Shown: positions 1 to 47,950 of the stretch, piece by piece
Layout of the letters: every line of letters begins with the position of its first letter
How positions within the stretch are numbered: position 1 is the first letter of the stretch
DNA from: a bacterium
Lineage (GTDB): Bacteria; Patescibacteriota; Gracilibacteria; UBA1369; GCA-2718715
Assembly: GCA_018662325.1 (NCBI GenBank)
Contig: JABJGM010000007.1
Coordinates: 69,305-133,304, forward strand
DNA length: 64,000 nucleotides
Direction of reading: 5' to 3'
Position numbers and translations under genes: made by a program
Notes under the pieces: model-generated
The model's input: the letters and a program-made list of their open reading frames with translations, nothing else
What the model was told of the DNA's origin: nothing
Databases searched by the model: none

Positions 1-76
1 ACTTAATTTCTAAATCAATGCCTTTTAAAATATCTTTCTCTCCAGCACTTACTTTCAAGCCTTTAACTTTTAACAT
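1..76 (-). CDS. N-terminus of an ABC ATPase, probably SufC-like (truncated by window edge)
   Basis: Manual translation from ATG at 76 gives MLKVKGLKVSAGEKDILKGIDLEIK, a typical ABC ATPase/SufC N-terminus. Confidence 0.6.
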   Translation of the reverse strand, partial: MLKVKGLKVSAGEKDILKGIDLEIK

Positions 77-157
77 TTTATTTATTATATCAAGCTGAAT
101 TCTATGCAAAAACACAACAAAAATCAAGTTTTGAAAGCACTTAAAAATTTCAGACAA

Positions 158-185
158 TTGACCCAAAACAAAGCTGATGTATAAT
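158..185 (+). promoter_or_regulatory. sigma70-type promoter for the leader/ATP-grasp operon
   Basis: TTGACC (158-163), 16-nt spacer, TATAAT (180-185); the expected +1 falls at about 192, the A of the leader ATG. Confidence 0.7.
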
Positions 186-191
186 CATCAT

Positions 192-251
192 ATGAAAGAC
201 AAAAAAATTATTATTATTTCAATTATTAATTTTAGCACCCCGAAAGTGTAA
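192..251 (+). CDS. Ile-rich attenuator leader peptide MKDKKIIIISIINFSTPKV, probably leaderless
   Basis: ATG192 to TAA251; six ATT codons within 207-227; overlaps the antiterminator strand. Confidence 0.7.
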   Translation: MKDKKIIIISIINFSTPKV

Positions 252-306
252 TGTCTTTTATAAACTGATTATAAACCTAAACACTTTCAAAAGAAGTGTT
301 TTTTTT
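242..306 (+). terminator. Attenuator: antiterminator strand plus intrinsic terminator
   Basis: AAACACTT(279-286)/AAGTGTTT(294-301) stem with T-run to 306; GAAAGTGT(242-249) is the exact complement of ACACTTTC(281-288). Confidence 0.75.
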
Positions 307-320
307 AAAACCAAATTAAA

Positions 321-1658
321 ATGAAATTCACAAACACACAATTTCAAACAGGATATCAAAGATTTACTCCAGAAAGCTTTTTAGAGTACGGAAAGCCACT
401 TTATATTCAAGATGTAGCCGAAGAGACTATGGAAGGAACAAACGAAAATTCAACAATTACTGGACTCGAAAAATATGGATACCGACTTTTACCCCTTGTA
501 GCAAACAAGCCTGGTCTTTGGATTCACAATAAAAATGATAATGAGTACATAAATCAATACCTCGATTATTTAGCAACAGTAAGCGGAGAACAAAATCAAA
601 TTCAAACACTTGGTATTGAACTAGCTAATCAAAGCTTAACTCAGGCTACACTAAACAACCTTGAGCAAATTGACCAATACAATTGCGAATCAATAATTCC
701 ATTTATAATGTCTGAATCTAGTGAATTAATTGCAGACACACTAAACCTTGCATGCTTTGAAAGAAACTCAAACAGTGAAAAACTAAACAACAAAGGAATT
801 TTCCTAGAAATGTGTAGTCTTAAAGGGGTAAAAACACCCTACGGATCAACATACAGAAACCCCGAGCAAGCTTGGGAGCTATATACGGAGCTTGAAAACA
901 AAGGAGCTATTGCTTTTTATTCCAAATTATCAAGAAGTGCATCTGGACAAGGAATTAGACAATTTCATTATTCAGATCCGAACACAAAAGAAAATTTTAA
1001 AAGTTATTTAACCAATCAAGATACTATTTCAAACATGGAGCAGTATGGTATTAGGATGGATGAAGCCATTAAGTTTGATCAATCGCCAGCAATTGTTTTC
1101 TGGATGTGTCCAAGAACAGGAATTCAAGTTGTAAACTCTAACTATCAAATCCTATCAAAAAAAATGGAAAGCGATTTAAACCCAACTGTTCACAAGGGTG
1201 CAATGGGAAGCCTAACTGATAATGAACTTCAAGAGCTTAACCTAACGATTCAAAGAACAGAAGAAATCCTAAAAGAAAATCACTGTTATGGTCCTGGAAG
1301 CATAGATTTTATATCAAGAAAAAACCCCTTAACAAGATCCAATGAACACTTTGTAGTAGAAATGAATAAAAGAATTACAGGAGGGTATCATAATTACTTA
1401 GCTAAAAAATTTGGATTTGAGCATTTTAGATCAGATTGCAACATGCCATGTTCTTCTAAGATTGCATTTAGTACGTTAATTACAAAGTTAAACGAGAATG
1501 ATTTACTTTGGACTCAAAGTAAAAACTCTGGTACATTTGTGATAAACTACCAAACTGCTCCAATTCACGAAAAAATAGCAATTATATCCCTAGGAAAAAG
1601 CAAAAAGGAAGCTCAAAATGTATATTCACAAACTCAAGAACTAATCTCTAATTTATGA
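321..1658 (+). CDS. ATP-grasp ligase, possibly related to peptide/amino-acid ligases, with an N-terminal pre-ATP-grasp region
   Basis: LNNKGIF..GVKTP, KLSRSASGQG loop, GPGSIDF..VVEMNKR (E-x-N-x-R) ATP-grasp motifs. Confidence 0.8.
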   Translation: MKFTNTQFQTGYQRFTPESFLEYGKPLYIQDVAEETMEGTNENSTITGLEKYGYRLLPLVANKPGLWIHNKNDNEYINQYLDYLATVSGEQNQIQTLGIELANQSLTQATLNNLEQIDQYNCESIIPFIMSESSELIADTLNLACFERNSNSEKLNNKGIFLEMCSLKGVKTPYGSTYRNPEQAWELYTELENKGAIAFYSKLSRSASGQGIRQFHYSDPNTKENFKSYLTNQDTISNMEQYGIRMDEAIKFDQSPAIVFWMCPRTGIQVVNSNYQILSKKMESDLNPTVHKGAMGSLTDNELQELNLTIQRTEEILKENHCYGPGSIDFISRKNPLTRSNEHFVVEMNKRITGGYHNYLAKKFGFEHFRSDCNMPCSSKIAFSTLITKLNENDLLWTQSKNSGTFVINYQTAPIHEKIAIISLGKSKKEAQNVYSQTQELISNL

Positions 1659-2764
1659 AAAGATTAAAAACTCAAGAATTACTAGTTGAATTAATAAAAA
1701 TTCCAAGTGAATCGGCCAATCCAAAACAAGTAAAAAGAGCTATCAACTTTATAATTGACTACCTAAAAGAGAATATTCAAGATCACTCGAGTTTAGAATT
1801 TCTAGAGTTTGACTGTAAAGAATGCCATAACTTAGTCGTAAGGCCAAAAGGAATATCAAAATCCAAACTAACACTTTATAGCCACATAGATGTAGTAAAA
1901 GCAGATAACATAGAGCAATACACACCAATTATTAAAGATGATAAAATTTATGGAAGAGGATCAGGTGACATGAAATCCGGAACAGCAATTGAAATTCAAA
2001 CTTTCATTGACCAATTAAATATCAACCCAAATTCATCACTAGCACTAATGATTGTAGGGGATGAAGAAATAGGGGGAATGAACGGCATTAGATACTTATT
2101 AGCTGAAAAAGAATATCGTACAGATTGTGTTTACATGCCAGATTCAGGATCTGGACTGGATACAATCATTACAGAACAAAAAGGAATTTTATTTATAAAA
2201 GTTACTGCAAAGGGAGTTGCATCTCATGGATCAAGACCCCATGAAGGAAAAAATGCAATACTTAAAGCTTTCGAAGTTATCAACAAGTTATACACATTTT
2301 TTGAAGAAAGTGATCCTACTAAATACAGATCTACAATTAATATCTCACAAATAATTTCTGGAAAATCATTTAATTCAGTTCCAGATAGTTGTGAATTCAC
2401 AATTGATATTAGATTTACTGAGATTTCAAAAGTAAATCAAATTCTCAAGTTCCTAGAAAGCTCTAATGATTTAAAATTTGAAACTCTACTTTTTGATAAA
2501 AACTTTCATATAGAAAAAGAAAACACCTATCTTCAACAGTATCAAAAAATTGCTAAAAGCACTTTAGAGTCAGATGTTAAATTTAAATTTGAACACGGTG
2601 GATCAGACGGGAGATTTTTTCAAAACTACCAAATACCTTGTGTTATAACAGGAATAAAAAAAGGTAATACCCACGGAGAAAACGAATGGGTAGACACAGA
2701 AGAATTAGCTTTAGCAGAAAGCATTCTTAAAGATTTTATAACTCAAACTCTTGAAAAGTCCTAA
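1655..2764 (+). CDS. M20 family metallopeptidase/amidohydrolase (ArgE/DapE-like)
   Basis: SHIDVV, YGRGSGDMKSG, GDEEIGG, GGSDGRFF, HGENEW; ATGA overlap with the upstream gene. Confidence 0.92.
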   Translation: MKRLKTQELLVELIKIPSESANPKQVKRAINFIIDYLKENIQDHSSLEFLEFDCKECHNLVVRPKGISKSKLTLYSHIDVVKADNIEQYTPIIKDDKIYGRGSGDMKSGTAIEIQTFIDQLNINPNSSLALMIVGDEEIGGMNGIRYLLAEKEYRTDCVYMPDSGSGLDTIITEQKGILFIKVTAKGVASHGSRPHEGKNAILKAFEVINKLYTFFEESDPTKYRSTINISQIISGKSFNSVPDSCEFTIDIRFTEISKVNQILKFLESSNDLKFETLLFDKNFHIEKENTYLQQYQKIAKSTLESDVKFKFEHGGSDGRFFQNYQIPCVITGIKKGNTHGENEWVDTEELALAESILKDFITQTLEKS

Positions 2765-2776
2765 ACGGACTTTTTT
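2753..2776 (+). terminator. Intrinsic terminator closing the ATP-grasp/M20 operon
   Basis: AAAAGTCC-TAAAC-GGACTTTT followed by more T residues, spanning the stop codon. Confidence 0.7.
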
Positions 2777-2873
2777 AAATTAGAATGAAAAAAACATAAA
2801 ATGAATATCCAAAATTCAAATTTTGAATTTCAAAGCTATGCAAAATAATTTAATATATTAAAAACAAACCTTT

Positions 2874-3701
2874 ATGAAATTATTTACATACGGACCAAAA
2901 TATTCACTAAGCTATATTCAAGCCAAAAAACTTTTCCCAGATGTAGAAATTACACCTGAAAACAATATTCAAAATTTACTAAAAAAAATTGTACGTAACA
3001 AAAACAGTTTAGCTATAATTAACATTGGTAATAATATAAACGGATTAAACACTCAATTTATTGAGAAGATAAACCAAAACAATCTAAAGATCTGGGATAT
3101 ATACCAAACAAAACCAGATTTAAATCTTTATGCTCACTCAAATTTAATTAAGGATATTTACATTCCTCAAGATTATAGTTCAGTAGTTCAAGAAAGTTTA
3201 AACCAAAAATACTCTCAAATAAATCATGAAATCACACACGATTTAAAATCCGCCGTAGAGGCTTGTATGTATCAACCCAATGCTGCACTCGTGTGCAACC
3301 CAAAACTAGCCTCATTCCTTAAATTAAAAGCTGTAGATAAATATATTTTAGATCAAGGTAATCCTATTGTAGACTTTGCAATAATTAGTCAAAATCAAAA
3401 CGCTCAAGTTCACACTCGCACTCACATAAAACTAACTCCGAAAAAAAATTTAGATAATGGATTGATAAATTTACTTTATCCCTTTAAAGAACATCAAGTT
3501 GCAATTTCGCAGATTCATACAATTCCTAATAAAGAAATTGCAAACCAAAACCACTTCCTACTTGAAATAAAAGGTGATCCACGTCAAGCAAAGCTTCGAC
3601 AAACAATCACAATGCTCGAAAGAGATCTAAAAATATGTAATGTTCAGATTCTAGGAGGTCAAACTGACACACTAAAAAACAATTTAGAAGCTAAAGACTA
3701 A
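2874..3701 (+). CDS. Degenerate prephenate dehydratase-like protein with C-terminal ACT domain
   Basis: YGPKYSLS resembles LGPxGTFS; NIGNNING resembles PIENSxEG; GLINLLYPFKEHQVAISQIHTIP resembles the ACT domain; TRF and ESRP motifs are lost. Confidence 0.7.
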   Translation: MKLFTYGPKYSLSYIQAKKLFPDVEITPENNIQNLLKKIVRNKNSLAIINIGNNINGLNTQFIEKINQNNLKIWDIYQTKPDLNLYAHSNLIKDIYIPQDYSSVVQESLNQKYSQINHEITHDLKSAVEACMYQPNAALVCNPKLASFLKLKAVDKYILDQGNPIVDFAIISQNQNAQVHTRTHIKLTPKKNLDNGLINLLYPFKEHQVAISQIHTIPNKEIANQNHFLLEIKGDPRQAKLRQTITMLERDLKICNVQILGGQTDTLKNNLEAKD

Positions 3702-4227
3702 GTAGTTCAAAATTACTACCAGCAGACTCAAATGCCTCCAAAAAATCTAAGTGGGTATAAATAGAGCCCCCTTTAAAAGTCATTCCCCCTTTTGTAGTTT
3801 CTACATAGTCTTTATGGATCTTTAAAACTTCAGTTAAAACTTGATCCTTTTCATCGTATAAAAAACTGCCTAGACTAGAGTTATCCAACAAGACCAAGAC
3901 CTTGTTTTCTTTCATTAAAGATTTCAAATCTTCAATTGAATTTATTTCTACCTTAACAACTTCAGTAACTTCTTTTTTATCATCCACAGATAGATCACTA
4001 GCTTCAAGTTCTATTTTAGAATCCATTTGGTACAAAGAAGCAGTTAAATCTGAGGCCAGAGTATGTTCAACCTGAACTTTTTTTTCAACTTTTGGTATCT
4101 CAATATTTTTGAAATTTTTATTGCCTAAAGAAATACCTAAAAACTCGCTTAAAACACCAAAAACCATTGCAATCATAAAAACACCAGCAGTCATAACACT
4201 AAAAACTCTAACCAAAAATTCTAACAT
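3691..4227 (-). CDS. Hypothetical membrane-anchored protein
   Basis: ORF with N-terminal TM segment; ATG at 4227 preferred over the upstream TTG. Confidence 0.65.
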   Translation of the reverse strand: MLEFLVRVFSVMTAGVFMIAMVFGVLSEFLGISLGNKNFKNIEIPKVEKKVQVEHTLASDLTASLYQMDSKIELEASDLSVDDKKEVTEVVKVEINSIEDLKSLMKENKVLVLLDNSSLGSFLYDEKDQVLTEVLKIHKDYVETTKGGMTFKGGSIYTHLDFLEAFESAGSNFELLSL

Positions 4228-5746
4228 AAATCTTTTTAAAATCAATTCCAGTATACTGAATCATATTCAAATAATGCAAACCAACAAAATAAACAAAAGC
4301 ACCTATCAAAGAGCCTATAAACAACTTTAAAAGAGGATTCATTTCAATTGAATTAATAGGGTAAACAGCCAAAACCATTATAAAACAAGCAAAAATCAAC
4401 CTGAAAATCTTTTTTACAATTGAAACAAAAGGTATTTGAACATACTTTTTTAAAAAGCTTAACAAAAGTATATTTTGTATAATAACTCCAAGTGAAAAAA
4501 AGAATCCAAAAGCATAAACTCCGAAGCTTTCTGCAAAATAATATACTCCAAAAGTTGATGTAAACAAGAAAAACTGACTAAAAATAACCGGTAAAATAGT
4601 ATTAGAAAAGGCATAATAAATACGAGAATATAAGTGATTCAATCCTTCAAAAGGAATTGCAATCAATAAAAAAATCAAAATCAAAATAGTATTTTCAGCA
4701 GCCACAGAACCAAATGAACCGTATTCAAATAAACCAGAAATCATTGGCCTTAAAAGTACATACATCCCACTAGTTGCAGCTAAACAAAAAGTTAAAATTC
4801 GTAAAATAGAATCTTCAATTTCGACTTTTAATTGAGATTGTTTTTTTTCGTGTACTAAATCCAAAATAAATGGATAAACAGCAGTAGCAAAAGAAATTGC
4901 AAATAAACTTACTGCAAAACTTTGAATATTACGGGCTAAATTAAAAGCTGTATTTATCCCCTCTTGATAAGAAAGAGCCATCTTTGCAAAGAAAAGCAAT
5001 GTTAACTGCATGCTTAAAAGACCAAAAATTTTAGGCAAAGATAATTTAATAATTTCAAAAAGTCTTTCATGATAAAAGCTAAAAACTAATTTTATTTTAG
5101 AATGCTTAAAATCCCAAAATCTAAATAAAAAATGAAAACAAAGACCAAGTACAACTCCTAAAATAGCAGCTTTAATTCCCATTACAGGGCCCAAAAACAA
5201 AGTCATGCCTATAATACCAAGATTATAAAAAAAAGGGCTTAAAGCGTAACTTAAATAATGCTTAGAATTCATCAAGATCGATCCAAAAAAATTAGATATA
5301 CTAAAAATCAAAGGGGAAAACAATAATATTCTACTAAACTCAATAATGTTACTTTGAAGCGAAGAAGATGATTCATTAAATACAAAAGAAACAATAAAAG
5401 GCATAAACAAGTAAGACAGAGCACAAATCAAAATCACAAAAGAAAGCATCCAGAATAAAAAAGATCCACATAATCTTTCAGAAGATTCTTTATTTAAAGA
5501 TTTTTCTTTCGAATAAACTTTTAGAAAAATCCCAGATAAAAATCCGCCAGCTGAAAATGCAAATATTACATCCGGTATTAAAAAAGCTGCAAAATAAGCA
5601 TCAGTAGATCCAGTAGCACCAAAAGTGTAAGCAATAATCAAATCACGAAAAAAGCCTGCTAGATAACTCAAAAAAGTTGCAACAACTAAAAGAATTGTTG
5701 CATAGTTTTTTGAAGTAGGGGAAAAAAATCTAGTAATTATTTTCAC
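4208..5746 (-). CDS. murJ: Lipid II flippase MurJ/MviN
   Basis: GFFRDLIIAYTFGATGSTDAYFAAFLIPD signature; multi-TM, 512 aa. Confidence 0.92.
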   Translation of the reverse strand: MKIITRFFSPTSKNYATILLVVATFLSYLAGFFRDLIIAYTFGATGSTDAYFAAFLIPDVIFAFSAGGFLSGIFLKVYSKEKSLNKESSERLCGSFLFWMLSFVILICALSYLFMPFIVSFVFNESSSSLQSNIIEFSRILLFSPLIFSISNFFGSILMNSKHYLSYALSPFFYNLGIIGMTLFLGPVMGIKAAILGVVLGLCFHFLFRFWDFKHSKIKLVFSFYHERLFEIIKLSLPKIFGLLSMQLTLLFFAKMALSYQEGINTAFNLARNIQSFAVSLFAISFATAVYPFILDLVHEKKQSQLKVEIEDSILRILTFCLAATSGMYVLLRPMISGLFEYGSFGSVAAENTILILIFLLIAIPFEGLNHLYSRIYYAFSNTILPVIFSQFFLFTSTFGVYYFAESFGVYAFGFFFSLGVIIQNILLLSFLKKYVQIPFVSIVKKIFRLIFACFIMVLAVYPINSIEMNPLLKLFIGSLIGAFVYFVGLHYLNMIQYTGIDFKKIYVRIFG

Positions 5747-8211
5747 TATTTTTGTTTATCTTTTATTAGAGCTTCACATTCTTTTAAAGTTACTTTATCA
5801 ACTTCTTTGTCCTTGGGAAACTTCACATTAACCTTACCATCAGTGATATACATTCCATACCTTCCTTTTTTAACTTGAACTTTAGATCCTTCAAAATCTT
5901 TAATTAATCCTTTGGCTCCAGTAGCTGATTTCAAAGCTTCATCAGCTTCATCTATACTAAAACTAAAAATATCAAATTTTGCAATTGAAGCATTTTTACC
6001 TCCAGATTTTATATACGGACCAAACCTACCAAGATCTAAGACTACTTCTTCATTAGTAGTTTTTGAAACTCCAATTGATTTAGGTAAAGACAGTAAAAAT
6101 ACAGCTTTTTCTAAATCACAATCTTCCATAGCTAAATTATTTGGCAGTCCTTTCATTTTGGGTTTGTCAGCTTGATCTTTATCACCAAGTTGAACATATG
6201 GACCAAACCTACCATTCTTAATAAATATAGGCATTTTAGTTTCAGGATCAACTCCAATCGAGTCCATTTTATCACCTTTTTCTATAAGCTCTGAAGCTTT
6301 TTCATAACTCAACTCATCCGGTTTCAAATCAATTGCTAAATTAGCTTTTTGCTCACCTTTCATCAAATAAGCTCCATATCTACCAACCATAACTTTAATA
6401 TCTTCAAATTTAAAAACATCAATTTCAGCTACATCAAGTGCAGAAATATCTTTCTCCAACAATTTAAACAACCCTACATGTGACTTGTCTCCAAAGTAAA
6501 AAGAATTTAAATAACTTAACTTTTCAATTTCACCTCTTGAAATACTATCCAAATCATTCTCCATTCCAGCTGTAAACTCATAATCTAAAAACTCCGTGAA
6601 ATGATTATCCAATAATTTAACAACAGAAAACACAATAAAAGTTGGTACTAAAGCTCTTTTATCTTTAATTACATATCCTCTCTTTATAACCGTTTCAATA
6701 ATTGATGCATAAGTAGAAGGACGTCCAATTCCTTTTTCTTCTAAAGCTTTTACAATCGAAGCTTCATTATACCTAGCTTTTGGTTTTGTTTCATGTTCTT
6801 TAAAATTGTCTTTTAGAAACTTAACAGTATCATTTTCACTCAAAGGAGGTAAAATCTTACTTTCTTCAGATTTTTTATCCGAACTTTCCTGATAAAGCTT
6901 AGTAAAACCTGCAAAGGTTTCAACTCTTCCGCTTGCATTCAAACCCAAGCTTTCAGACTTTATTGAGACTGATGTTTGCATATATTCAGCATTTGCCATT
7001 TGACTAGCTAAGGTTCTATTGAAAATCAATTGATATAACTTTAACTGTTCCGATGTAAGTTTGGATTTCACACTATCTGGTGTTTTGAAAGCTTTTCCAG
7101 CAGGTCTAATAGCCTCATGAGCCTCCTGCGCATTCTTAACTTTTGAAGAGTAATTTCTAACAGATTTATACAAATATTCTGCTCCAAACTTTTGTTCTAC
7201 TAAATTTCTAGCACCAAAAATTGCTTCTTTTGAAAGAGTCACAGAATCGGTTCTCATATAAGTAATAAAACCATTTTCATAGAGCTTTTGTGCAACCATC
7301 ATGGTTTGTTTAGAAGAAAAACCAAACTTTCTATTGGCATCCATTTGCAGAGTAGAAGTTGTAAAAGGAGGTTTAGGAGATAATTTAACCGGTTTAGATT
7401 GAACTTTATCTATGATTAAAGTTTCATCTTTTAAAGCAGCTTGAATATCAGGTAAATTTTCACCATTTACAATCAATCTATCTTTTAATAATTTACCAGT
7501 TGATGGATCAAAATCCTTAGAAACAGCTAATTGTTTTCCTTTATAAGCTTTTAAATTAGCTTGAAACTTATCTTTATCTTTACTTTCTAAATCACAAACA
7601 ATCGACCCAAAAATTGCCTTTTTAAAATTAATTCTTTCTATTTCTCTCTCTACTATCAATTTACAAGTTACACTCTGTACACGTCCAGCAGAAAGCTTAG
7701 GAGCAACCTTTTTCCATAAAACAGGTGAAACTTCATAACCAAAAAGTCTGTCTAGAATTCTTCGAGACTCTTGAGCATTTACTAATTTATAATCAATGTC
7801 TCTTGGATTTTCTAATGACTCTAAAATTGCATCTTTAGTAATCTCATGAAAAGCAAGTCTTTTCACTGGAACTTTAGGTTTTAGAACATCTAATAAATGC
7901 CAAGAAATTGACTCACCTTCTCGATCCTCATCCGTTGCAAGATAGAGTTCTTTACAATCCTTAACTAATTTTTTTAACTTAGTAACATGCTTTTTCTTAT
8001 CACTTGGAACAACATAGATTGGCTCAAAATCCTTCTCAACGTTTATTCCTAATCGAGACCATTTTTGATCCTTATATTTTGCTGGAATTTCAGCTGCACT
8101 TTTTGGAAGATCACGAATATGACCAATGGAAGACTCAACTATAAAGTCTTTACCTAAAATTTTACTAATGGTTTTTGCCTTTGATGGCGATTCGACAATT
8201 ACTAATTTCAC
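5746..8211 (-). CDS. topA: DNA topoisomerase I
   Basis: LVIVESPSKAK, ATDEDREGE, SAGRVQ, ITYMRTDS, GIGRPSTY; C-terminal GRFGPY repeats. Confidence 0.98.
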   Translation of the reverse strand: MKLVIVESPSKAKTISKILGKDFIVESSIGHIRDLPKSAAEIPAKYKDQKWSRLGINVEKDFEPIYVVPSDKKKHVTKLKKLVKDCKELYLATDEDREGESISWHLLDVLKPKVPVKRLAFHEITKDAILESLENPRDIDYKLVNAQESRRILDRLFGYEVSPVLWKKVAPKLSAGRVQSVTCKLIVEREIERINFKKAIFGSIVCDLESKDKDKFQANLKAYKGKQLAVSKDFDPSTGKLLKDRLIVNGENLPDIQAALKDETLIIDKVQSKPVKLSPKPPFTTSTLQMDANRKFGFSSKQTMMVAQKLYENGFITYMRTDSVTLSKEAIFGARNLVEQKFGAEYLYKSVRNYSSKVKNAQEAHEAIRPAGKAFKTPDSVKSKLTSEQLKLYQLIFNRTLASQMANAEYMQTSVSIKSESLGLNASGRVETFAGFTKLYQESSDKKSEESKILPPLSENDTVKFLKDNFKEHETKPKARYNEASIVKALEEKGIGRPSTYASIIETVIKRGYVIKDKRALVPTFIVFSVVKLLDNHFTEFLDYEFTAGMENDLDSISRGEIEKLSYLNSFYFGDKSHVGLFKLLEKDISALDVAEIDVFKFEDIKVMVGRYGAYLMKGEQKANLAIDLKPDELSYEKASELIEKGDKMDSIGVDPETKMPIFIKNGRFGPYVQLGDKDQADKPKMKGLPNNLAMEDCDLEKAVFLLSLPKSIGVSKTTNEEVVLDLGRFGPYIKSGGKNASIAKFDIFSFSIDEADEALKSATGAKGLIKDFEGSKVQVKKGRYGMYITDGKVNVKFPKDKEVDKVTLKECEALIKDKQK

Positions 8212-10409: not shown

Positions 10410-10578
10410 AGTAAAAACTTAAATTACGTAAATAATAACAAAAAAAATAGTATTCACAAACTCTAAGAAAAAAAATTTTTGTCCAGAGTATTCAGATTGG
10501 TTAATATAAAAACGCAACTAAGTTGCACTCTTTGAAACAAATGATAAATTAGCCATGTGAATTAATTTAAAAACAAAA

Positions 10579-10883
10579 ATGCAAATTAAAAAGAAGGAAA
10601 AAGAAAAAGCTATCATACGCCCAGAAAACACAAAAAGACATCTGAAATATACAAAGCTTCAGTTGTTGTCAGGAGTGCAATTATTGCAAATATTGTCCCC
10701 TACGGACACATGGCACTTGAACCATTAGGCGTTTCGCACAGAGTAGCCGAAGAGATAAGCTTAGTTACGGCAGGATTACTTTTTACTCTAGAAATGATAG
10801 CTATGGATATTCGAATTACAATCGAGAATATCAAAGAAAAAACAAAAAAAATTCGCAACACAATCTCAAAACAAAAAGACTAA
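10579..10883 (+). pseudogene. Possible frameshifted small membrane protein, or a 57-aa ORF from ATG 10710
   Basis: The ATG10579 frame stops after 49 codons; the -1 frame is open from about 10590 to TAA 10883 and has a hydrophobic segment. Confidence 0.35.
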
Positions 10884-16604: not shown

Positions 16605-17855
16605 ATGACACAAAACAATAGATCGCACAACACTGAAGATACACTAAGACAATTGTTTTCTGGTTCAAAAAACAAAGCTAAAGCAATGGAAGTTGCACCA
16701 GAAATCACGCCAGTTGCTAGAATTAAAGTAATTGGTGTAGGAGGAGGAGGATCCAATGCGGTTAACCGAATGATCAAGTCTCAACTTCAAGGAGTTGAGT
16801 TTATTGCCATCAATACAGATGCGCAAGCTTTATATTATTCGGATGCAGATACCAAAATCAATATTGGTAAATCTACTACTCGTGGTCTTGGAGCAGGATC
16901 AGCTCCATCAGTTGGTAAACAATCAGCTGAAGAATCTTCTGAAGAAATCAAACAAGCTTTAGATCAAACAGACATGGTATTTATTACCTGTGGTCTAGGT
17001 GGTGGTACTGGTACAGGTGCCGCTCCAGTAGTAGCAGAAATTGCTAAAGAACTTGGAATCCTAACAGTTGGAGTAGTTACAGAACCATTTGGCTTTGAAG
17101 GACCAAGAAGAAGAAATCAAGCCGAAGACGGACTTTTGGCTCTTAAAGAAAAAGTTGATACATTAATTACTATTCCAAACGATAGAATTAAAAACATTAT
17201 CGACAAAAAAACTCCATTAATGGAAGCCTTTACAGTTGTAGATGACGTGTTAAGACAAGGTGTACAAGGAATCTCGGATCTTATTACAGTTCACGGTATG
17301 ATCAATGTCGATTTCGCCGATGTTAAAACTGTAATGGAAAATGCTGGATCTGCCCTTATGGGAATTGGATTTGGAACGGGTGAAGAAAGAGCAGTTGAAG
17401 CTGCTAAAGCTGCAATTGCAAGTCCCCTACTTGAAATGGATATTGATGGTGCTAGAGGAATTCTATTCAATGTTACAGGTGGATCTGACCTTTCTATGTT
17501 TGAAGTTGATGAAGCTGCGAAAATTATTACAGAAGCTGCAGACCCAGAAGCAACAATTATCTTTGGTGCTGTAATCAATGAAAATTATACTGGTGAAGTT
17601 AAAATTACTGTAGTTGCAACTGGTGTTGACGAAGCTGCCAAGAAAAGAAAACTTCAACAAAAAGGTTTTCATGCTCAAAGCTTAAACAATCAAAACCACT
17701 CGCAAAATTTAAGCTCTAACTCACAAAATAGTTCAAGCGGACACCAAGATCAGCTTTTGAATTTTGGACCATCTAAAGGATCATCAGTTGCTCCAAAACC
17801 AGAAGATGAACTAGACATCCCTGCTTTCATTAGAAACAACATGAAAAAGAACTAA
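16605..17855 (+). CDS. ftsZ: Cell division protein FtsZ
   Basis: [27 protein letters not shown]-terminal LDIPAFIR. Confidence 0.99.
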
Positions 17856-42462: not shown

Positions 42463-42871
42463 TGGTGGAGATGCCGGGAGTCGAACCCGGGTTCTTAAAT
42501 GGAGCTCATAAACGTCTACAATGATAGTCAATTTTAAATTGAAAGAAAATAGGCTATAAAATTAACAAAAAAACTTAAATTCTCTGTTTCTATTATTTAA
42601 AATTTACTCCGAAACAAAAGTAAATTCTAGTCTCTAATTGCCATTTTAAACTCCGAGACAAAATCTAAAATGGTCGCAGGCACTATTGGCCCACTAAAGC
42701 TAATTTGGAGTTAATTAAGCAGCAACTGCTTGAAAATTTCTTACGAAATCTAATTCTCCTTCATTGTTAGCACTTATAGTTGCACTAGACGGATCTACCC
42801 GGAGTAGTGCAATCCGGACATCGCAATTTATGACACCCTAGTCATCTAAGTCGAAAACCAGTTTCATCCCC
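42463..42871 (-). ncRNA. ssrA: tmRNA; tag ANNEGELDFVRNFQAVAA* at 42771-42715
   Basis: 5' GGGGATG pairs with 3' CATCTCC-ACCA including G3-U; T-arm GTTCGACTCCC; ATAAGT-GCT resume context; tag ends in AA. Confidence 0.96.
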
Positions 42872-47401: not shown

Positions 47402-47950
47402 ATTATATATATATATATTTAAAATAAATAATAGTAGTAATAGTAGAAGGCAATTGTGCAAAACGGATTTTCCATAGGTACAACCGTAATTCCAACTCTT
47501 GAGTAAGCAAGAGCTTTTTGGCTTTTTTAAAACAAATCATTAAACCTTGCACGACTTTTCCACAATCTATGTGCAAAACATTTTATTTTCTAATGTTTTT
47601 AACCACTTTTTCCTCTTCTTATAAACAAAATATTCAAAATAAAGTTTTCAACATTAAATGTGTAAAACTTGTTTATAACTTACTGTCTAATCAAAATTTT
47701 ATTGTATTTAACACTAAAGTTTTCAACAGCACTCAAACCTAGTTTTTCAGCTTATTTCAAACCTCTTACGGTACTGACTACCTAAAACCCATGTGCATAT
47801 CTTTTCTTATCAAAACCCATTATTTATCAACAACTTATTAACAATTTCCAGGCTTTTCAACAACTTTATAACTTTTCCACAATCTTTTACACAATCCAAA
47901 TAAAAGCTTTCTATAAACAAAAAAAAAGAATATCTGCAACTTATGCACAT
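47402..47950. other. Chromosomal replication origin oriC
   Basis: AT-repeat DUE at about 47402-47430; TAG-TAG-TAA-TAG-TAG trios at 47432-47446; TTWTNCACA boxes at 47455, 47556, 47570, 47659, 47873, 47885 and 47941, plus near-matches; lies upstream of dnaN. Confidence 0.9.

What the first reader, a model, noticed from the sequence alone, without database searches (positions are those of the whole stretch)
158..306. Leaderless Ile-rich leader peptide with full attenuator architecture
Seen: TTGACC-16-TATAAT puts +1 at about 192, where an ATG opens MKDKKIIIISIINFSTPKV* with six ATT codons in seven positions. A terminator (279-301 plus T-run) lies just before the ATP-grasp start at 321. The end of the leader (GAAAGTGT, 242-249) is an 8/8 complement of the terminator's 5' arm (281-288). 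In addition, ATGAAAGACA (192-201) can pair with TGTCTTTTAT (252-261; 10 bp, one G-U), and TTA.CAC/GTG.TAA hides the antiterminator strand. Established: this is the geometry of trp/thr/ilv attenuators. A ribosome stalled on the Ile codons would leave 242-249 free to antiterminate, while one at the stop codon would mask it. Inference: an Ile-tRNA-sensing attenuator that initiates without a 5' leader, in a probable amino-acid-auxotrophic CPR organism. I know of no described example there.
Basis: partly seen in the sequence, partly recalled or inferred. Interest (0 to 1): 0.85.

Follow-up and report, generated by a model that had tools for sequence, protein, structure and literature searches.

The report
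Isoleucine-sensing leader-peptide attenuator in CPR bacterium
A tiny isoleucine-rich reading frame followed by a switchable stop signal sits in front of an enzyme operon in a small-genome marine bacterium, and related genomes keep the same design, so it is most likely a classic amino-acid-sensing on/off switch in a group where none had been described.

Summary
Comparison shows it is not chance. Seven distinct related loci carry a 17-21 codon ORF at the same place, between divergent sufC and the ATP-grasp gene. The loci are from same-family genomes (one relative labelled Candidatus Peribacteria) and from metagenome contigs. Their ATP-grasp proteins are as little as 24-32% identical to the window's. 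All keep an invariant Ile-Ile followed by Ile/Val/Leu, a terminator, and an ORF end complementary to that locus's own terminator 5' arm. This RNA motif lies in different reading frames in different lineages, so the constraint is on RNA, not peptide. The same genome holds a second leader of the same design with six Asn codons in front of an aspartate--tRNA(Asn) ligase/AsnRS-like gene. It is conserved in four relatives. Masking by a modelled ribosome gives the expected switch. I read it as a ribosome-mediated transcription attenuator (confidence about 0.8). The leaderless start is a reasonable, genus-specific prediction and is unproven. The link between Ile and the regulated ATP-grasp ligase/M20/PDT operon is unknown. 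This is a new member of a known kind.

The parts
158..185 (+). Predicted sigma-70-type promoter (-35 at 158-163, 16-nt spacer, -10 at 180-185)
   Evidence: Scores 11/12. A -35-like TTGCAA/TTGACC with 16-17 nt spacing is present at the equivalent place in all 8 related leader regions. Not verified by transcript mapping.
192..251 (+). Leader ORF MKDKKIIIISIINFSTPKV plus stop; ATG at the predicted transcription start
   Evidence: Equivalent 17-21 codon ORFs are present in all 7 distinct related loci. G000 and G001 differ by 7 nt, all within codons 9-14. These give 6 amino-acid changes, while the first 24 nt and last 18 nt are identical.
207..227 (+). Regulatory codon run: ATT x4 (207-218), TCA, ATT x2 (222-227)
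   Evidence: Ile-Ile is invariant and followed by Ile/Val/Leu in all lineages. Codon runs are listed.
192..201 (+). P1 5' arm, at the 5' end of the predicted transcript and including the start codon
   Evidence: Pairs with 252-261 in the MFE fold. Duplex is better than 500/500 shuffles in the window genus and in L003, 22/500 in L011, and not significant in L004/L013/L014.
252..261 (+). P1 3' arm, directly after the stop codon
   Evidence: In relatives the 3' arm also starts within a few nt of the stop codon, with different sequence (GTAAC-type arms).
235..249 (+). P2: small hairpin 235-238:246-249 at the ORF end (region 1:2, anti-antiterminator)
   Evidence: It is weak (-2.3 kcal/mol). A hairpin is at the same place in 13 of 13 leaders, with different arm sequences.
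242..249 (+). Antiterminator 5' strand (region 2), ending 1 nt inside the stop codon
   Evidence: 8/8 complement of 281-288. Duplex -10.7 kcal/mol, 0 of 500 shuffles as good. The cognate partner is the best of 7 lineage representatives.
279..307 (+). Intrinsic terminator: stem 279-287/293-301, 5-nt loop, T run to 307. Its 5' arm (281-288) is the antiterminator 3' strand
   Evidence: RNAalifold consensus of 9 pairs, 3 with compensatory changes. An A:T to G:C change between G000 and G001 has a G-T intermediate in strain variant L009.
321..1658 (+). First regulated gene: PGM1/BesA-like ATP-grasp ligase (445 aa)
   Evidence: No direct Pfam hit. Among 44 relatives, ATP-grasp_3 is found in 27, PGM1_C in 12 and PreAtp-grasp in 9. 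PDB profile hits. AF2 model pLDDT 92. Foldseek 8yi6/8ynd/3wvq TM 0.72-0.74.
1655..2764 (+). Second gene, overlapping the first by 4 nt: M20 ArgE/DapE-family deacylase (369 aa)
   Evidence: Pfam Peptidase_M20 8.7e-24. NCBIfam DapE-ArgE subfamily 7.2e-55, below cut-off. Conserved next to the ligase in L006, L007, L011, L013, L014.
2874..3701 (+). Third gene after a 110-nt gap: prephenate-dehydratase-family protein (275 aa). Membership of the regulated unit is uncertain
   Evidence: Pfam PDT 8.3e-13. The same gene order occurs in L006 and L014.
2..76 (-). Divergent upstream gene, N-terminus of SufC
   Evidence: ORF. The full-length upstream neighbours in L003 and L006 match TIGR01978 sufC at 1e-97 and 2e-98. 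The window fragment itself was not scanned.

Best explanation
Positions 158-320 are a ribosome-mediated (leader-peptide) transcription attenuator of the trp/ilv/leu type. It senses charged tRNA-Ile, and probably also tRNA-Val in relatives. It controls read-through into an operon for a PGM1/BesA-like ATP-grasp ligase and an M20 deacylase, possibly also a PDT-family protein.

Proposed mechanism. Transcription starts at about 192 and a ribosome translates the 19-codon leader.
- If Ile-tRNA is plentiful, the ribosome reaches the stop codon (249-251). There it covers region 2 (242-249), so the terminator (279-301 plus U run) forms and transcription ends before 321.
- If Ile-tRNA is scarce, the ribosome stalls on the ATT run (207-227). 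Region 2 stays free and pairs with the terminator 5' arm (281-288) as soon as that arm is made. The terminator is pre-empted and the operon is transcribed.
- Untranslated RNA folds into P1 (192-201:252-261) plus P2 (235-238:246-249). This hides the start codon and region 2 and favours termination.

Shown: the sequence elements, their conservation and covariation, the paralogous Asn leader, and the thermodynamic behaviour under modelled ribosome masks.
Inferred: the transcription start, actual translation of the ORF, actual termination and read-through, the response to Ile, and the role of P1.
For: (1) All elements are present at the stated coordinates. The fold has z = -3.1.
(2) There are seven distinct orthologous loci: window; L002/G001; L003/G009; L011; L004/G007; L013; L014. 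A further strain variant is L009. All have sufC divergent, a promoter-like site, a 17-21 codon ORF with Ile-Ile-(Ile/Val)-(Ile/Val/Leu), a terminator 23-35 nt after the stop, and the ligase ATG 17-28 nt after the terminator.
(3) ORF-end to terminator 5'-arm complementarity beats all but 0-6 of 500 shuffles in 13 of 13 leaders, 8 Ile and 5 Asn. Mean duplex energy is -11.9 kcal/mol for cognate pairs and -6.1 for pairs from different lineages. The cognate partner is best or tied in 5 of 7 lineage representatives. Four antiterminator positions show two-sided compensatory changes, as do 3 of 9 terminator pairs.
(4) The conserved GAAAG-type motif is read in different frames: PKV*, SEGSF*, AKGTL*, CER*. 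The constraint is therefore on RNA, while the Ile run is kept in frame.
(5) Between G000 and G001, all 7 leader substitutions fall between the first Ile codons and P2, and 6 change the amino acid. This argues against a conserved peptide product.
(6) Ribosome-mask folding. With the ribosome at the stop codon, P(T) is 0.99 or more and P(AT) is 0 in 13 of 13. With a stall at the first run codon, AT is formed before the T 3' arm in 13 of 13 (0.5-1.0) and is still favoured at equilibrium in 10 of 13.
(7) A second leader of the same architecture in the same genome has six AAT codons. It lies before a 431-aa gene best matched by aspartate--tRNA(Asn) ligase (432 bits, cut-off 353). Runs of 5-7 Asn are conserved in G001, G009, G007 and G003.
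(8) These two are the only ORFs with an amino-acid run, a terminator 20-26 nt before a gene start, and this complementarity. They were found among 56 upstream terminator-like hairpins and 771 small ORFs.
(9) Leader ORFs of relatives carry the genome's own initiation motif TAA(C/T) at -11 to -14.
Against: There is no experimental or transcript evidence. No RNA run holds the locus, and the contigs that were laid are uninformative.

The window's terminator is weak (2 G-C pairs, -6.8 kcal/mol) and is missed by the consensus scan.

Equilibrium folding is not uniformly switch-like. With a stall at the last run codon, AT is favoured in only 8 of 13. In L011 (first-codon stall), Asn_G009 and Asn_G007 the terminator wins thermodynamically, so kinetic pre-emption must be assumed. 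Free RNA gives P(T) above 0.8 in only 8 of 13.

P1 is statistically supported only in the window genus, in L003, and marginally in L011 and Asn G000/G001.

The Ile run lies 17-29 nt upstream of region 2, so a stalled ribosome does not cover region 1, unlike in trp.

The regulated genes have no known link to isoleucine. The genome has no IlvD hit, and ileS has its own T-box-like leader.

The sample is small: 7 Ile loci from about 4 deep lineages. They are kin, so the counts are not independent.

No Rfam family matches.
Confidence: 0.8

Rival explanations
1. The structure is an attenuator, but it reads general translation capacity or coupling rather than isoleucine specifically. On this view the hydrophobic run is incidental or merely a slow stretch.
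For: ATT is an ordinary codon in a 30% GC genome. The run degenerates to III-L-T-I-L in G001 and to II-VV or II-V-L in relatives. The regulated genes have no evident Ile function.
Against: Ile-Ile is invariant in 7 of 7 lineages despite 24-32% identity of the neighbouring protein. The paralogous leader carries 5-7 Asn codons precisely before a tRNA(Asn)-charging enzyme gene, which shows codon-specific logic in this design.
Confidence: 0.08
2. The small ORF encodes a functional peptide, for example a ribosomal precursor or substrate for the PGM1-like ATP-grasp peptide ligase and the M20 peptidase. The hairpin after it is a leaky terminator that sets precursor-to-enzyme stoichiometry.
For: The downstream enzyme's closest solved relatives are peptide or amino-acid ligases (8ynd, 8yi6, PGM1 3wvq). 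PGM1 is recalled to ligate ribosomal peptides. A small ORF followed by a hairpin is a usual RiPP-operon layout (recalled).
Against: The C-terminal residues differ because the same RNA motif is read in different frames. Six of 19 residues differ between two species of one genus, while the RNA arms are identical. The hydrophobic core is only 4-5 residues long in L004-type leaders. The same architecture with Asn codons precedes an aminoacyl-tRNA synthetase gene, where a precursor role makes no sense. Complementarity between the ORF end and the terminator covaries. A dual role is not excluded.
Confidence: 0.06
3. This is a structured leader RNA that binds a metabolite, protein or tRNA (riboswitch, T-box-like or protein-mediated antitermination), and the ORF is incidental.
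For: P1/P2/terminator form a conserved fold. The same genome uses a T-box-like leader for ileS.
Against: No Rfam match in 1-3000 even at E up to 10. There is no conserved unpaired sequence block beyond the helices. The ORF, its start signal, its in-frame Ile run, and a stop codon placed 1-8 nt after region 2 are kept in every lineage.
Confidence: 0.04
4. This is a chance ATT microsatellite and chance complementarity in AT-rich intergenic DNA next to an ordinary terminator.
For: (ATT)4 occurs 11 times in the genome. The number of promoter-like sites is not above shuffles. A Tyr-run ORF and a Phe-rich ORF in the window appear to be chance.
Against: Conservation with covariation across loci whose flanking protein is only 24-32% identical. 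Shuffle controls. A second, paralogous instance.
Confidence: 0.02

Closest known systems
Enterobacterial ilvGMEDA / ilvBN / thr / leu / trp leader-peptide attenuators (recalled from textbook knowledge; no paper read here)
   Same: A short leader ORF with a run of cognate codons. Alternative 1:2, 2:3 and 3:4 pairings in which region 2 resembles region 4 and region 1 resembles region 3. An intrinsic terminator just before the first gene. A ribosome at the stop codon masks region 2. The mixture of Ile/Val/Leu codons in relatives recalls the ilv leaders.
   Different: No sequence or Rfam relationship. The host has no Shine-Dalgarno use. The run lies upstream of region 1 rather than inside it. An extra closing helix, P1, joins the 5' end to the post-stop segment. 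The regulated genes are not Ile/Val biosynthesis genes, and the host lacks an IlvD hit.
Corynebacterium glutamicum ilvBNC three-hairpin attenuator (PMC11857589; passages found by term search and the abstract start in the listing)
   Same: A BCAA leader peptide on a leaderless transcript. A first hairpin (H1) blocks initiation at the 5'-terminal start codon and acts as an anti-antiterminator, which is the role I propose for P1 (192-201:252-261). A terminator hairpin follows.
   Different: A different phylum and no homology. The target there is a BCAA biosynthesis operon. In this family only the window's genus is predicted to be leaderless.
Mycobacterial polycysteine leaderless short-ORF attenuators (bioRxiv 10.1101/834739; abstract and outline read)
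   Same: A leaderless sensory short ORF with a homo-codon tract. Several loci share one design and form a ribosome-directed regulon ('ribulon'). Here the parallel is the Ile and Asn leaders.
   Different: [quoted passage not shown] Here a terminator with a U run points to transcription termination.
E. coli pheST leader (pheM) attenuator (recalled; not read here)
   Same: A leader peptide with cognate codons controlling an aminoacyl-tRNA synthetase gene. This is the closest precedent for the Asn leader noticed in this genome.
   Different: Asn codons and an aspartate--tRNA(Asn) ligase/AsnRS-like target. My search for asparaginyl-tRNA synthetase + leader peptide + attenuation found 0 papers.
T-box leaders (RF00230)
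   Same: They sense tRNA charging and control a terminator/antiterminator choice. One is probably present before ileS in the same genome (38.6 bits, E 3.5e-7, below the gathering score of 93).
   Different: No T-box match at 158-320. Here sensing is through translation of codons, not through tRNA binding.

Membership tests
Ribosome-mediated (leader-peptide) transcription attenuator | Short ORF in the 5' leader with a plausible initiation signal | tested here: met
   ORF 192-251. Equivalent ORFs in 7 of 7 distinct loci. Relatives carry the genome-typical TAA(C/T) motif at -11 to -14. The window's ATG sits at the predicted +1 (leaderless; prediction only).
Ribosome-mediated (leader-peptide) transcription attenuator | Cluster of codons for one amino acid (or a related set), conserved in frame | tested here: met
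   Six ATT in seven codons. Ile-Ile plus Ile/Val/Leu in all lineages. Only 3 of 771 small intergenic ORFs in the genome are this enriched.
Ribosome-mediated (leader-peptide) transcription attenuator | Intrinsic terminator between the leader ORF and the first structural gene | tested here: met
   Hairpin 279-301 plus T run. Present in 13 of 13 leaders, 17-28 nt before the gene ATG. Covariation in 3 of 9 pairs. Termination itself is not shown.
Ribosome-mediated (leader-peptide) transcription attenuator | Antiterminator mutually exclusive with the terminator, whose 5' strand is covered by a ribosome at the stop codon | tested here: met
   242-249:281-288. Significant in 13 of 13 leaders. The strand ends 1-8 nt from the end of the stop codon. 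Masking at the stop gives P(T) of 0.99 or more in 13 of 13. Cognate versus non-cognate pairing.
Ribosome-mediated (leader-peptide) transcription attenuator | Anti-antiterminator (1:2) that sequesters region 2 in untranslated RNA | tested here: inconclusive
   The P2 hairpin is present in 13 of 13 but weak in the Ile set (-2.3 to -4.9 kcal/mol). P1 is significant in only part of the set. Free RNA gives P(T) above 0.8 in 8 of 13.
Ribosome-mediated (leader-peptide) transcription attenuator | Regulated genes functionally tied to the sensed amino acid | tested here: inconclusive
   Asn leader: met, because the target is an aspartate--tRNA(Asn) ligase/AsnRS-like gene. Ile leader: the ATP-grasp ligase, M20 deacylase and PDT protein have no demonstrated Ile link.
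Ribosome-mediated (leader-peptide) transcription attenuator | Read-through rises when the cognate charged tRNA is limiting | not testable with these tools
   No RNA run holds the locus. The organism is uncultured.
Leaderless mRNA | Transcript 5' end coincides with the start codon | not testable with these tools
   Prediction only. The -10 box ends 6 nt before ATG 192. The distance from -35 to the leader ATG is 34 nt here against 48-49 nt in L003/L004/L014, so the 14-nt 5'UTR with its TAA motif is missing.
Known Rfam leader families (Thr, Leu, His, Trp, Phe leaders; T-box) | Match to a curated covariance model | tested here: not met
   cmscan of window 1-3000 at E up to 10 returned 5 weak hits, none within 150-320.
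RiPP / ribosomal precursor peptide of a PGM1-like ligase | Peptide sequence (leader or core) conserved at the amino-acid level with the ligase | tested here: not met
   The C-termini differ through frame changes over a conserved RNA motif. G000 and G001 differ at 6 of 19 residues.

The most novel reading that the evidence does not exclude
This small-genome Peregrinibacteria-like family may run a 'ribulon' of paralogous leader-peptide attenuators built on one scaffold and retargeted by swapping the codon run (Ile, Asn), in an organism that initiates translation without Shine-Dalgarno pairing. The Ile member would mark the ATP-grasp ligase/M20 deacylase (and PDT?) operon as a previously unknown isoleucine-acquisition or Ile-starvation pathway of an auxotrophic CPR bacterium. 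The leader peptide might also double as a substrate of the PGM1-like peptide ligase.
Probability: 0.15. Interest if true: 0.8.

Novelty: new member of a known kind. Interest (0 to 1): 0.58.

Why it matters
Regulation in CPR/Patescibacteria-type bacteria is almost unexplored, because they are uncultured and their leaders match no curated RNA family.

This locus, with its Asn twin, gives a sequence-level and comparatively supported case that classic ribosome-mediated attenuation operates there. It does so in a genome that lacks Shine-Dalgarno use.

It also provides a functional handle on an operon of unknown role. If the switch senses Ile-tRNA, then the PGM1/BesA-like ligase and M20 deacylase are switched on by isoleucine shortage in an organism without an IlvD hit. 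That makes a testable hypothesis about how such auxotrophs cope with amino-acid supply.

The genus-specific loss of the 5'UTR offers a natural comparison of leadered and leaderless versions of one attenuator.

The mechanism itself is textbook, so the surprise is moderate.

Tried and rejected
Rfam scan of window 1-3000 at E up to 10: nothing at the locus.

Expression evidence: the look-up of sequencing runs listed no RNA holder. Four runs of contigs were laid, including one guessed to be RNA. They covered only parts of the stretch, and the guessed-RNA contig covered only 1148-1700 of a 95%-like strain. This gives no information on starts, ends or read-through.

Wider distribution: a degenerate pattern for the antiterminator/terminator core was searched in 401 genomes of the class. 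It gave 36 matches in 33 genomes, no more than the reversed-pattern control columns, and the only recognisable true hit was the window itself. Nothing can be concluded about other families. The other same-family genomes were not in that sample.

Protein-based searches: the orthologous ligase was found in 5 of 61 relatives and in 5 of 10 genomes of the family, counting G005's distant hit. There were 3 loci in genome contigs and 6 in metagenome contigs. L005 (G014) and L019 (G005) are distant paralogues in other contexts. L005 has no such leader on reading, and L019's upstream was not read. Both were left out of the leader set.

They might add lineages.

MAFFT alignments A2 and A4 misalign the window genus in the antiterminator region. 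I therefore did not run the count of structure pairs or build a covariance model. Instead I used anchor-based pair tables and duplex energies in scripts.

Folding that lets P1 close around a stalled ribosome was judged unphysical and was replaced by folding only the RNA 3' of the footprint. Both are reported.

Other amino-acid-run ORFs:
- The Tyr-run ORF (window 47419-47475, minus strand) lies before dnaN in an AT-rich, origin-like spacer without a terminator.
- The Phe-rich ORF (window 10567-10641, minus strand) lies 101 nt from a SOUL-family gene and shows no complementarity on reading.
Both were rejected as attenuators.

The extended pairing 180-187:266-273 includes the predicted -10 box. 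It would need a start upstream of 180. I treat it as probable AT-rich coincidence, but it keeps an upstream start with ATG 177 open.

Literature: 0 papers for 'leader peptide' + attenuation + 'Candidate Phyla Radiation'. 0 for Patescibacteria + 'transcription attenuation'. 0 for asparaginyl-tRNA synthetase + leader peptide + attenuation. Supplements were not seen.

Full report
OBSERVATION

The window is 30% GC. It lies in a 980,408-base, 14-contig genome that is 95.8% complete.
- TTGACC at 158-163, a 16-nt spacer, and TATAAT at 180-185. One search scores this 11 of 12, the best of 22 promoter-like sites in 1-6000. The total number of sites is not above the shuffle mean of 25.9.
- ATG at 192 opening MKDKKIIIISIINFSTPKV, with stop at 249-251.
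- ATT codons at 207-218 and 222-227.
- 242-249 as an exact reverse complement of 281-288.
- 192-201 pairing with 252-261.
- A hairpin at 279-301 with a T run to 307, 13 nt before the ATG at 321.

The fold of 192-310 contains the closing helix, a small hairpin 235-238:246-249 and the terminator. Its energy is -18.6 kcal/mol, z = -3.1, and 1 of 200 shuffles folds as well.

The terminator is weak (2 G-C pairs, -6.8 kcal/mol), and the consensus scan does not list it. Other terminator-like hairpins in this genome look similar. An in-frame ATG at 177 lies inside the predicted spacer and -10 region.

CHANCE WITHIN THE GENOME

(ATT)4 occurs 11 times on both strands, 4 of them in my crude intergenic set. 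Of 771 small intergenic ATG-ORFs of 8-40 codons, only three distinct ones have 6 or more of 7 identical residues: this Ile ORF, a Tyr ORF and an Asn ORF.

I found 56 terminator-like hairpins within 120 nt upstream of crude gene calls. Nine have a small ORF ending 70 nt or less before them. Only the Ile and Asn ORFs combine an amino-acid run with a terminator 20-26 nt before the gene start.

The Tyr ORF lies before dnaN in an AT-rich spacer without a terminator. A Phe-rich ORF near a SOUL-family gene shows no complementarity. Both serve as negative examples.

COMPARATIVE TEST

The downstream protein has relatives in 5 of 61 related genomes and in 5 of 10 genomes of the family. There are 3 loci in the species-genome collection, with titles naming a Candidatus Peribacteria MAG and a Patescibacteria-group MAG. 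Candidatus Peribacteria is a class of Candidatus Peregrinibacteriota. There are 6 metagenome loci.

After removing duplicates there are seven distinct leader regions plus one strain variant. The neighbouring proteins are 83% to 24% identical to the window's.

Every one has sufC divergent upstream; sufC was verified for L003 and L006. Every one has a TTGCAA/TTGACC promoter-like site and a 17-21 codon ORF. The ORFs are:
- MKDKKIIIISIINFSTPKV
- MKDKKIIILTILKLSTPKV
- MFKQMLIIVVLTFNPLSEGSF
- MARKQMLIIVLPQYPLAKGTL
- MNNTLIIIVDNTTPCER
- MNNTLIIIVDNMTPCER
- MKNTLCIIIIQNNPCER

Ile-Ile is invariant and is followed by Ile, Val or Leu.

The geometry is constant. The terminator 5' arm starts 23-35 nt after the stop, and the ligase ATG follows the terminator by 17-28 nt.

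RNA-LEVEL CONSTRAINT

The ORF end is complementary to that locus's own terminator 5' arm in all 8 Ile and 5 Asn leaders. Only 0-6 of 500 shuffles do as well. The strand ends 1-8 nt from the end of the stop codon.

Mean cognate duplex energy is -11.9 kcal/mol. For partners from other lineages it is -6.1. The cognate partner is best or tied in 5 of 7 lineage representatives.

Anchored pair tables show two-sided compensatory changes at four antiterminator positions in the Ile set and at three terminator positions. RNAalifold finds the terminator as the consensus structure, with 3 of 9 pairs compensated.

The conserved GAAAG-type core is read in different frames in different lineages, giving C-termini PKV, SEGSF, AKGTL and CER.

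Between the two species of the window's genus, all 7 substitutions in the ORF fall in codons 9-14, and 6 of them change the residue. The first 24 nt and last 18 nt are identical. A terminator pair changes from A:T to G:C, with a G-T intermediate in the strain variant L009.

This pattern fits a regulatory RNA with a required codon run. It does not fit a conserved peptide.

SWITCH BEHAVIOUR IN SILICO

I folded only the RNA 3' of a modelled footprint, from the A-site codon -15 to +12.
- Ribosome at the stop codon: P(terminator) is 0.99 or more and P(antiterminator) is 0 in 13 of 13.
- Ribosome at the first codon of the run: the antiterminator forms (0.5-1.0) before the terminator 3' arm exists in 13 of 13. 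It remains favoured at equilibrium in 10 of 13.
- Ribosome at the last run codon: the antiterminator is favoured in 8 of 13.

In L011, Asn_G009 and Asn_G007 the terminator is thermodynamically stronger, so kinetic pre-emption has to be assumed. From recall, the classic trp case needs the same assumption.

Free RNA favours the terminator (P above 0.8) in 8 of 13, including the window at 0.99.

The closing helix P1 beats 500 of 500 shuffles in the window genus and in L003, and is marginal in L011 (22 of 500). It is not significant in the L004 group, although there its arms change in a compensatory way (GTAACT/AGTTAC against GTAACA/TGTTAC).

A SECOND LEADER OF THE SAME DESIGN

On contig C8 of the same genome, MQKLLLNNNNNNLNSPLVS carries six AAT codons. 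It has a promoter-like site, a P1-type pairing, a hairpin at the ORF end, an 8-bp complement of the terminator 5' arm ending at the stop codon, and a terminator 26 nt before a 431-aa gene.

That gene scores best as aspartate--tRNA(Asn) ligase (432 bits, cut-off 353). Its AsnRS models score lower. The genome also has a 587-aa AspRS-like frame.

The Asn leader is conserved in G001, G009, G007 and G003, with 5-7 consecutive Asn codons. Here the codon run matches the function of the target. This is the strongest argument that the design senses a specific charged tRNA.

TRANSLATION SIGNALS AND THE LEADERLESS CLAIM

The genome does not use Shine-Dalgarno sites. SD-like 4-mers occur before 30 of 816 genes (3.7%), against 14% of in-gene windows. 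A published survey lists Ca. Peribacter riflensis among SD-scarce organisms lacking CCUCC (PMC10783764; one passage seen).

Instead, TAA starts exactly at -12 before 225 of about 812 genes. TAAC at -12 is enriched 11.5-fold. The frequency is the same for operon-internal genes (60 of 211) as for other genes. It therefore behaves as an initiation signal rather than a promoter.

Leaders of relatives carry this motif at -11 to -14, often inside the P1 5' arm. The window's ATG 192 does not.

The distance from -35 to the leader ATG is 34 nt here, against 48-49 nt in L003, L004 and L014. The 5'UTR seems to have been lost in this genus, and the ATG sits where the transcript should start. I put the leaderless start at roughly 55%.

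An upstream start using ATG 177 is kept open by a weaker promoter-like site at 131-158 and by an extended complementarity 180-187:266-273.

WHAT IS REGULATED

The 445-aa protein has no direct Pfam or NCBIfam hit. A profile search finds 288 representatives. Among 44 aligned relatives, 27 match ATP-grasp_3, 12 match PGM1_C and 9 match PreAtp-grasp.

The profile hits PDB 8ynd (ATP-grasp peptide ligase, 1.9e-30), 8yi6 (L-propargylglycine--L-glutamate ligase, 2.7e-27) and PGM1 3wvq. An AF2 model with pLDDT 92 matches these at TM 0.72-0.74.

An ArgE/DapE-family M20 deacylase overlaps the ligase by 4 nt. A PDT-family protein follows after 110 nt. The gene order is conserved.

No IlvD-family gene was found in the genome. 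ileS has its own T-box-like leader, below the Rfam threshold. The connection between isoleucine and this operon is therefore open. Attenuator logic predicts that the operon is induced by Ile shortage.

KNOWN RELATIVES AND NOVELTY

The mechanism is that of the enterobacterial amino-acid leaders (recalled). The nearest described cases are:
- The leaderless C. glutamicum ilvBNC attenuator, in which a first hairpin blocks initiation and acts as an anti-antiterminator (PMC11857589, passage seen).
- The mycobacterial polycysteine leaderless short ORFs (abstract read).

No Rfam model matches. My searches found no paper on attenuation in CPR or Patescibacteria, nor on an Asn leader before an AsnRS-type gene. 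Supplements and subscription journals were not covered.

I file it as a new member of a known kind. It is well supported by comparison, untested by experiment, and of moderate interest. That interest comes mainly from the lineage, the paired Ile and Asn leaders, and the clue it gives to an operon of unknown function.

LIMITS

The sample is seven Ile loci from about four deep lineages, all kin. There are no transcript data. A pattern search of 401 class genomes did not rise above its control.

Noticed in passing
L020:1444-1627 (minus strand) = G000 contig C8 about 16843-17026, outside the window: A second leader-peptide attenuator of the same architecture, with six consecutive Asn codons (MQKLLLNNNNNNLNSPLVS). 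It lies before a 431-aa aspartate--tRNA(Asn) ligase/AsnRS-like gene and is conserved with 5-7 Asn codons in G001, G009, G007 and G003.
   Followed up: yes
L033:3442-3623 (minus strand) = upstream of the 1036-aa IleRS-like gene on G000 contig C7: A T-box-like leader with the conserved GGUGGUACCGCG box and a much shortened stem I. It scores 38.6 bits (E 3.5e-7), below Rfam's gathering score of 93. So ileS and the ATP-grasp operon would sense Ile by different devices.
   Followed up: partly
whole genome G000 (all crude gene starts): Almost no Shine-Dalgarno use (3.7% of genes). Instead there is a sharp TAA(C/T) motif starting at -12 from the start codon (225 of about 812 genes; TAAC enriched 11.5-fold). 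It is equally frequent before operon-internal genes, so it is RBS-like rather than a promoter.
   Followed up: partly
window 321-3701: A conserved three-gene set of unknown pathway: PGM1/BesA-like ATP-grasp ligase, ArgE/DapE-family M20 deacylase and a prephenate-dehydratase-family protein. The genome has no IlvD hit.
   Followed up: partly
window 180-187 and 266-273: An extra 8-bp complementarity extends the P1 pairing and includes the predicted -10 box. It could only form in a transcript that starts upstream of 180.
   Followed up: no
window 47419-47475 (minus strand): A small ORF with six consecutive Tyr codons in the 680-nt AT-rich spacer between an RNase J gene and dnaN. There is no terminator. 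It looks like a chance ORF in an origin-like region.
   Followed up: partly
window 10503-10641 (minus strand): A Phe-rich small ORF followed by a hairpin with a T run, 101 nt before a SOUL heme-binding-family gene and downstream of tRNA-Asp. No antiterminator complementarity was seen on reading.
   Followed up: partly
window 42463-42871 (minus strand): A tmRNA gene with tag peptide ANNEGELDFVRNFQAVAA.
   Followed up: no
L045 (G291:C3:144465-144522, minus strand): One hit of the class-wide pattern search has a GAAAGT motif upstream of a CACTTTC/GAAAGTG hairpin with a T run, resembling the window's core. The overall hit count equalled the control, and I did not inspect it.
   Followed up: no
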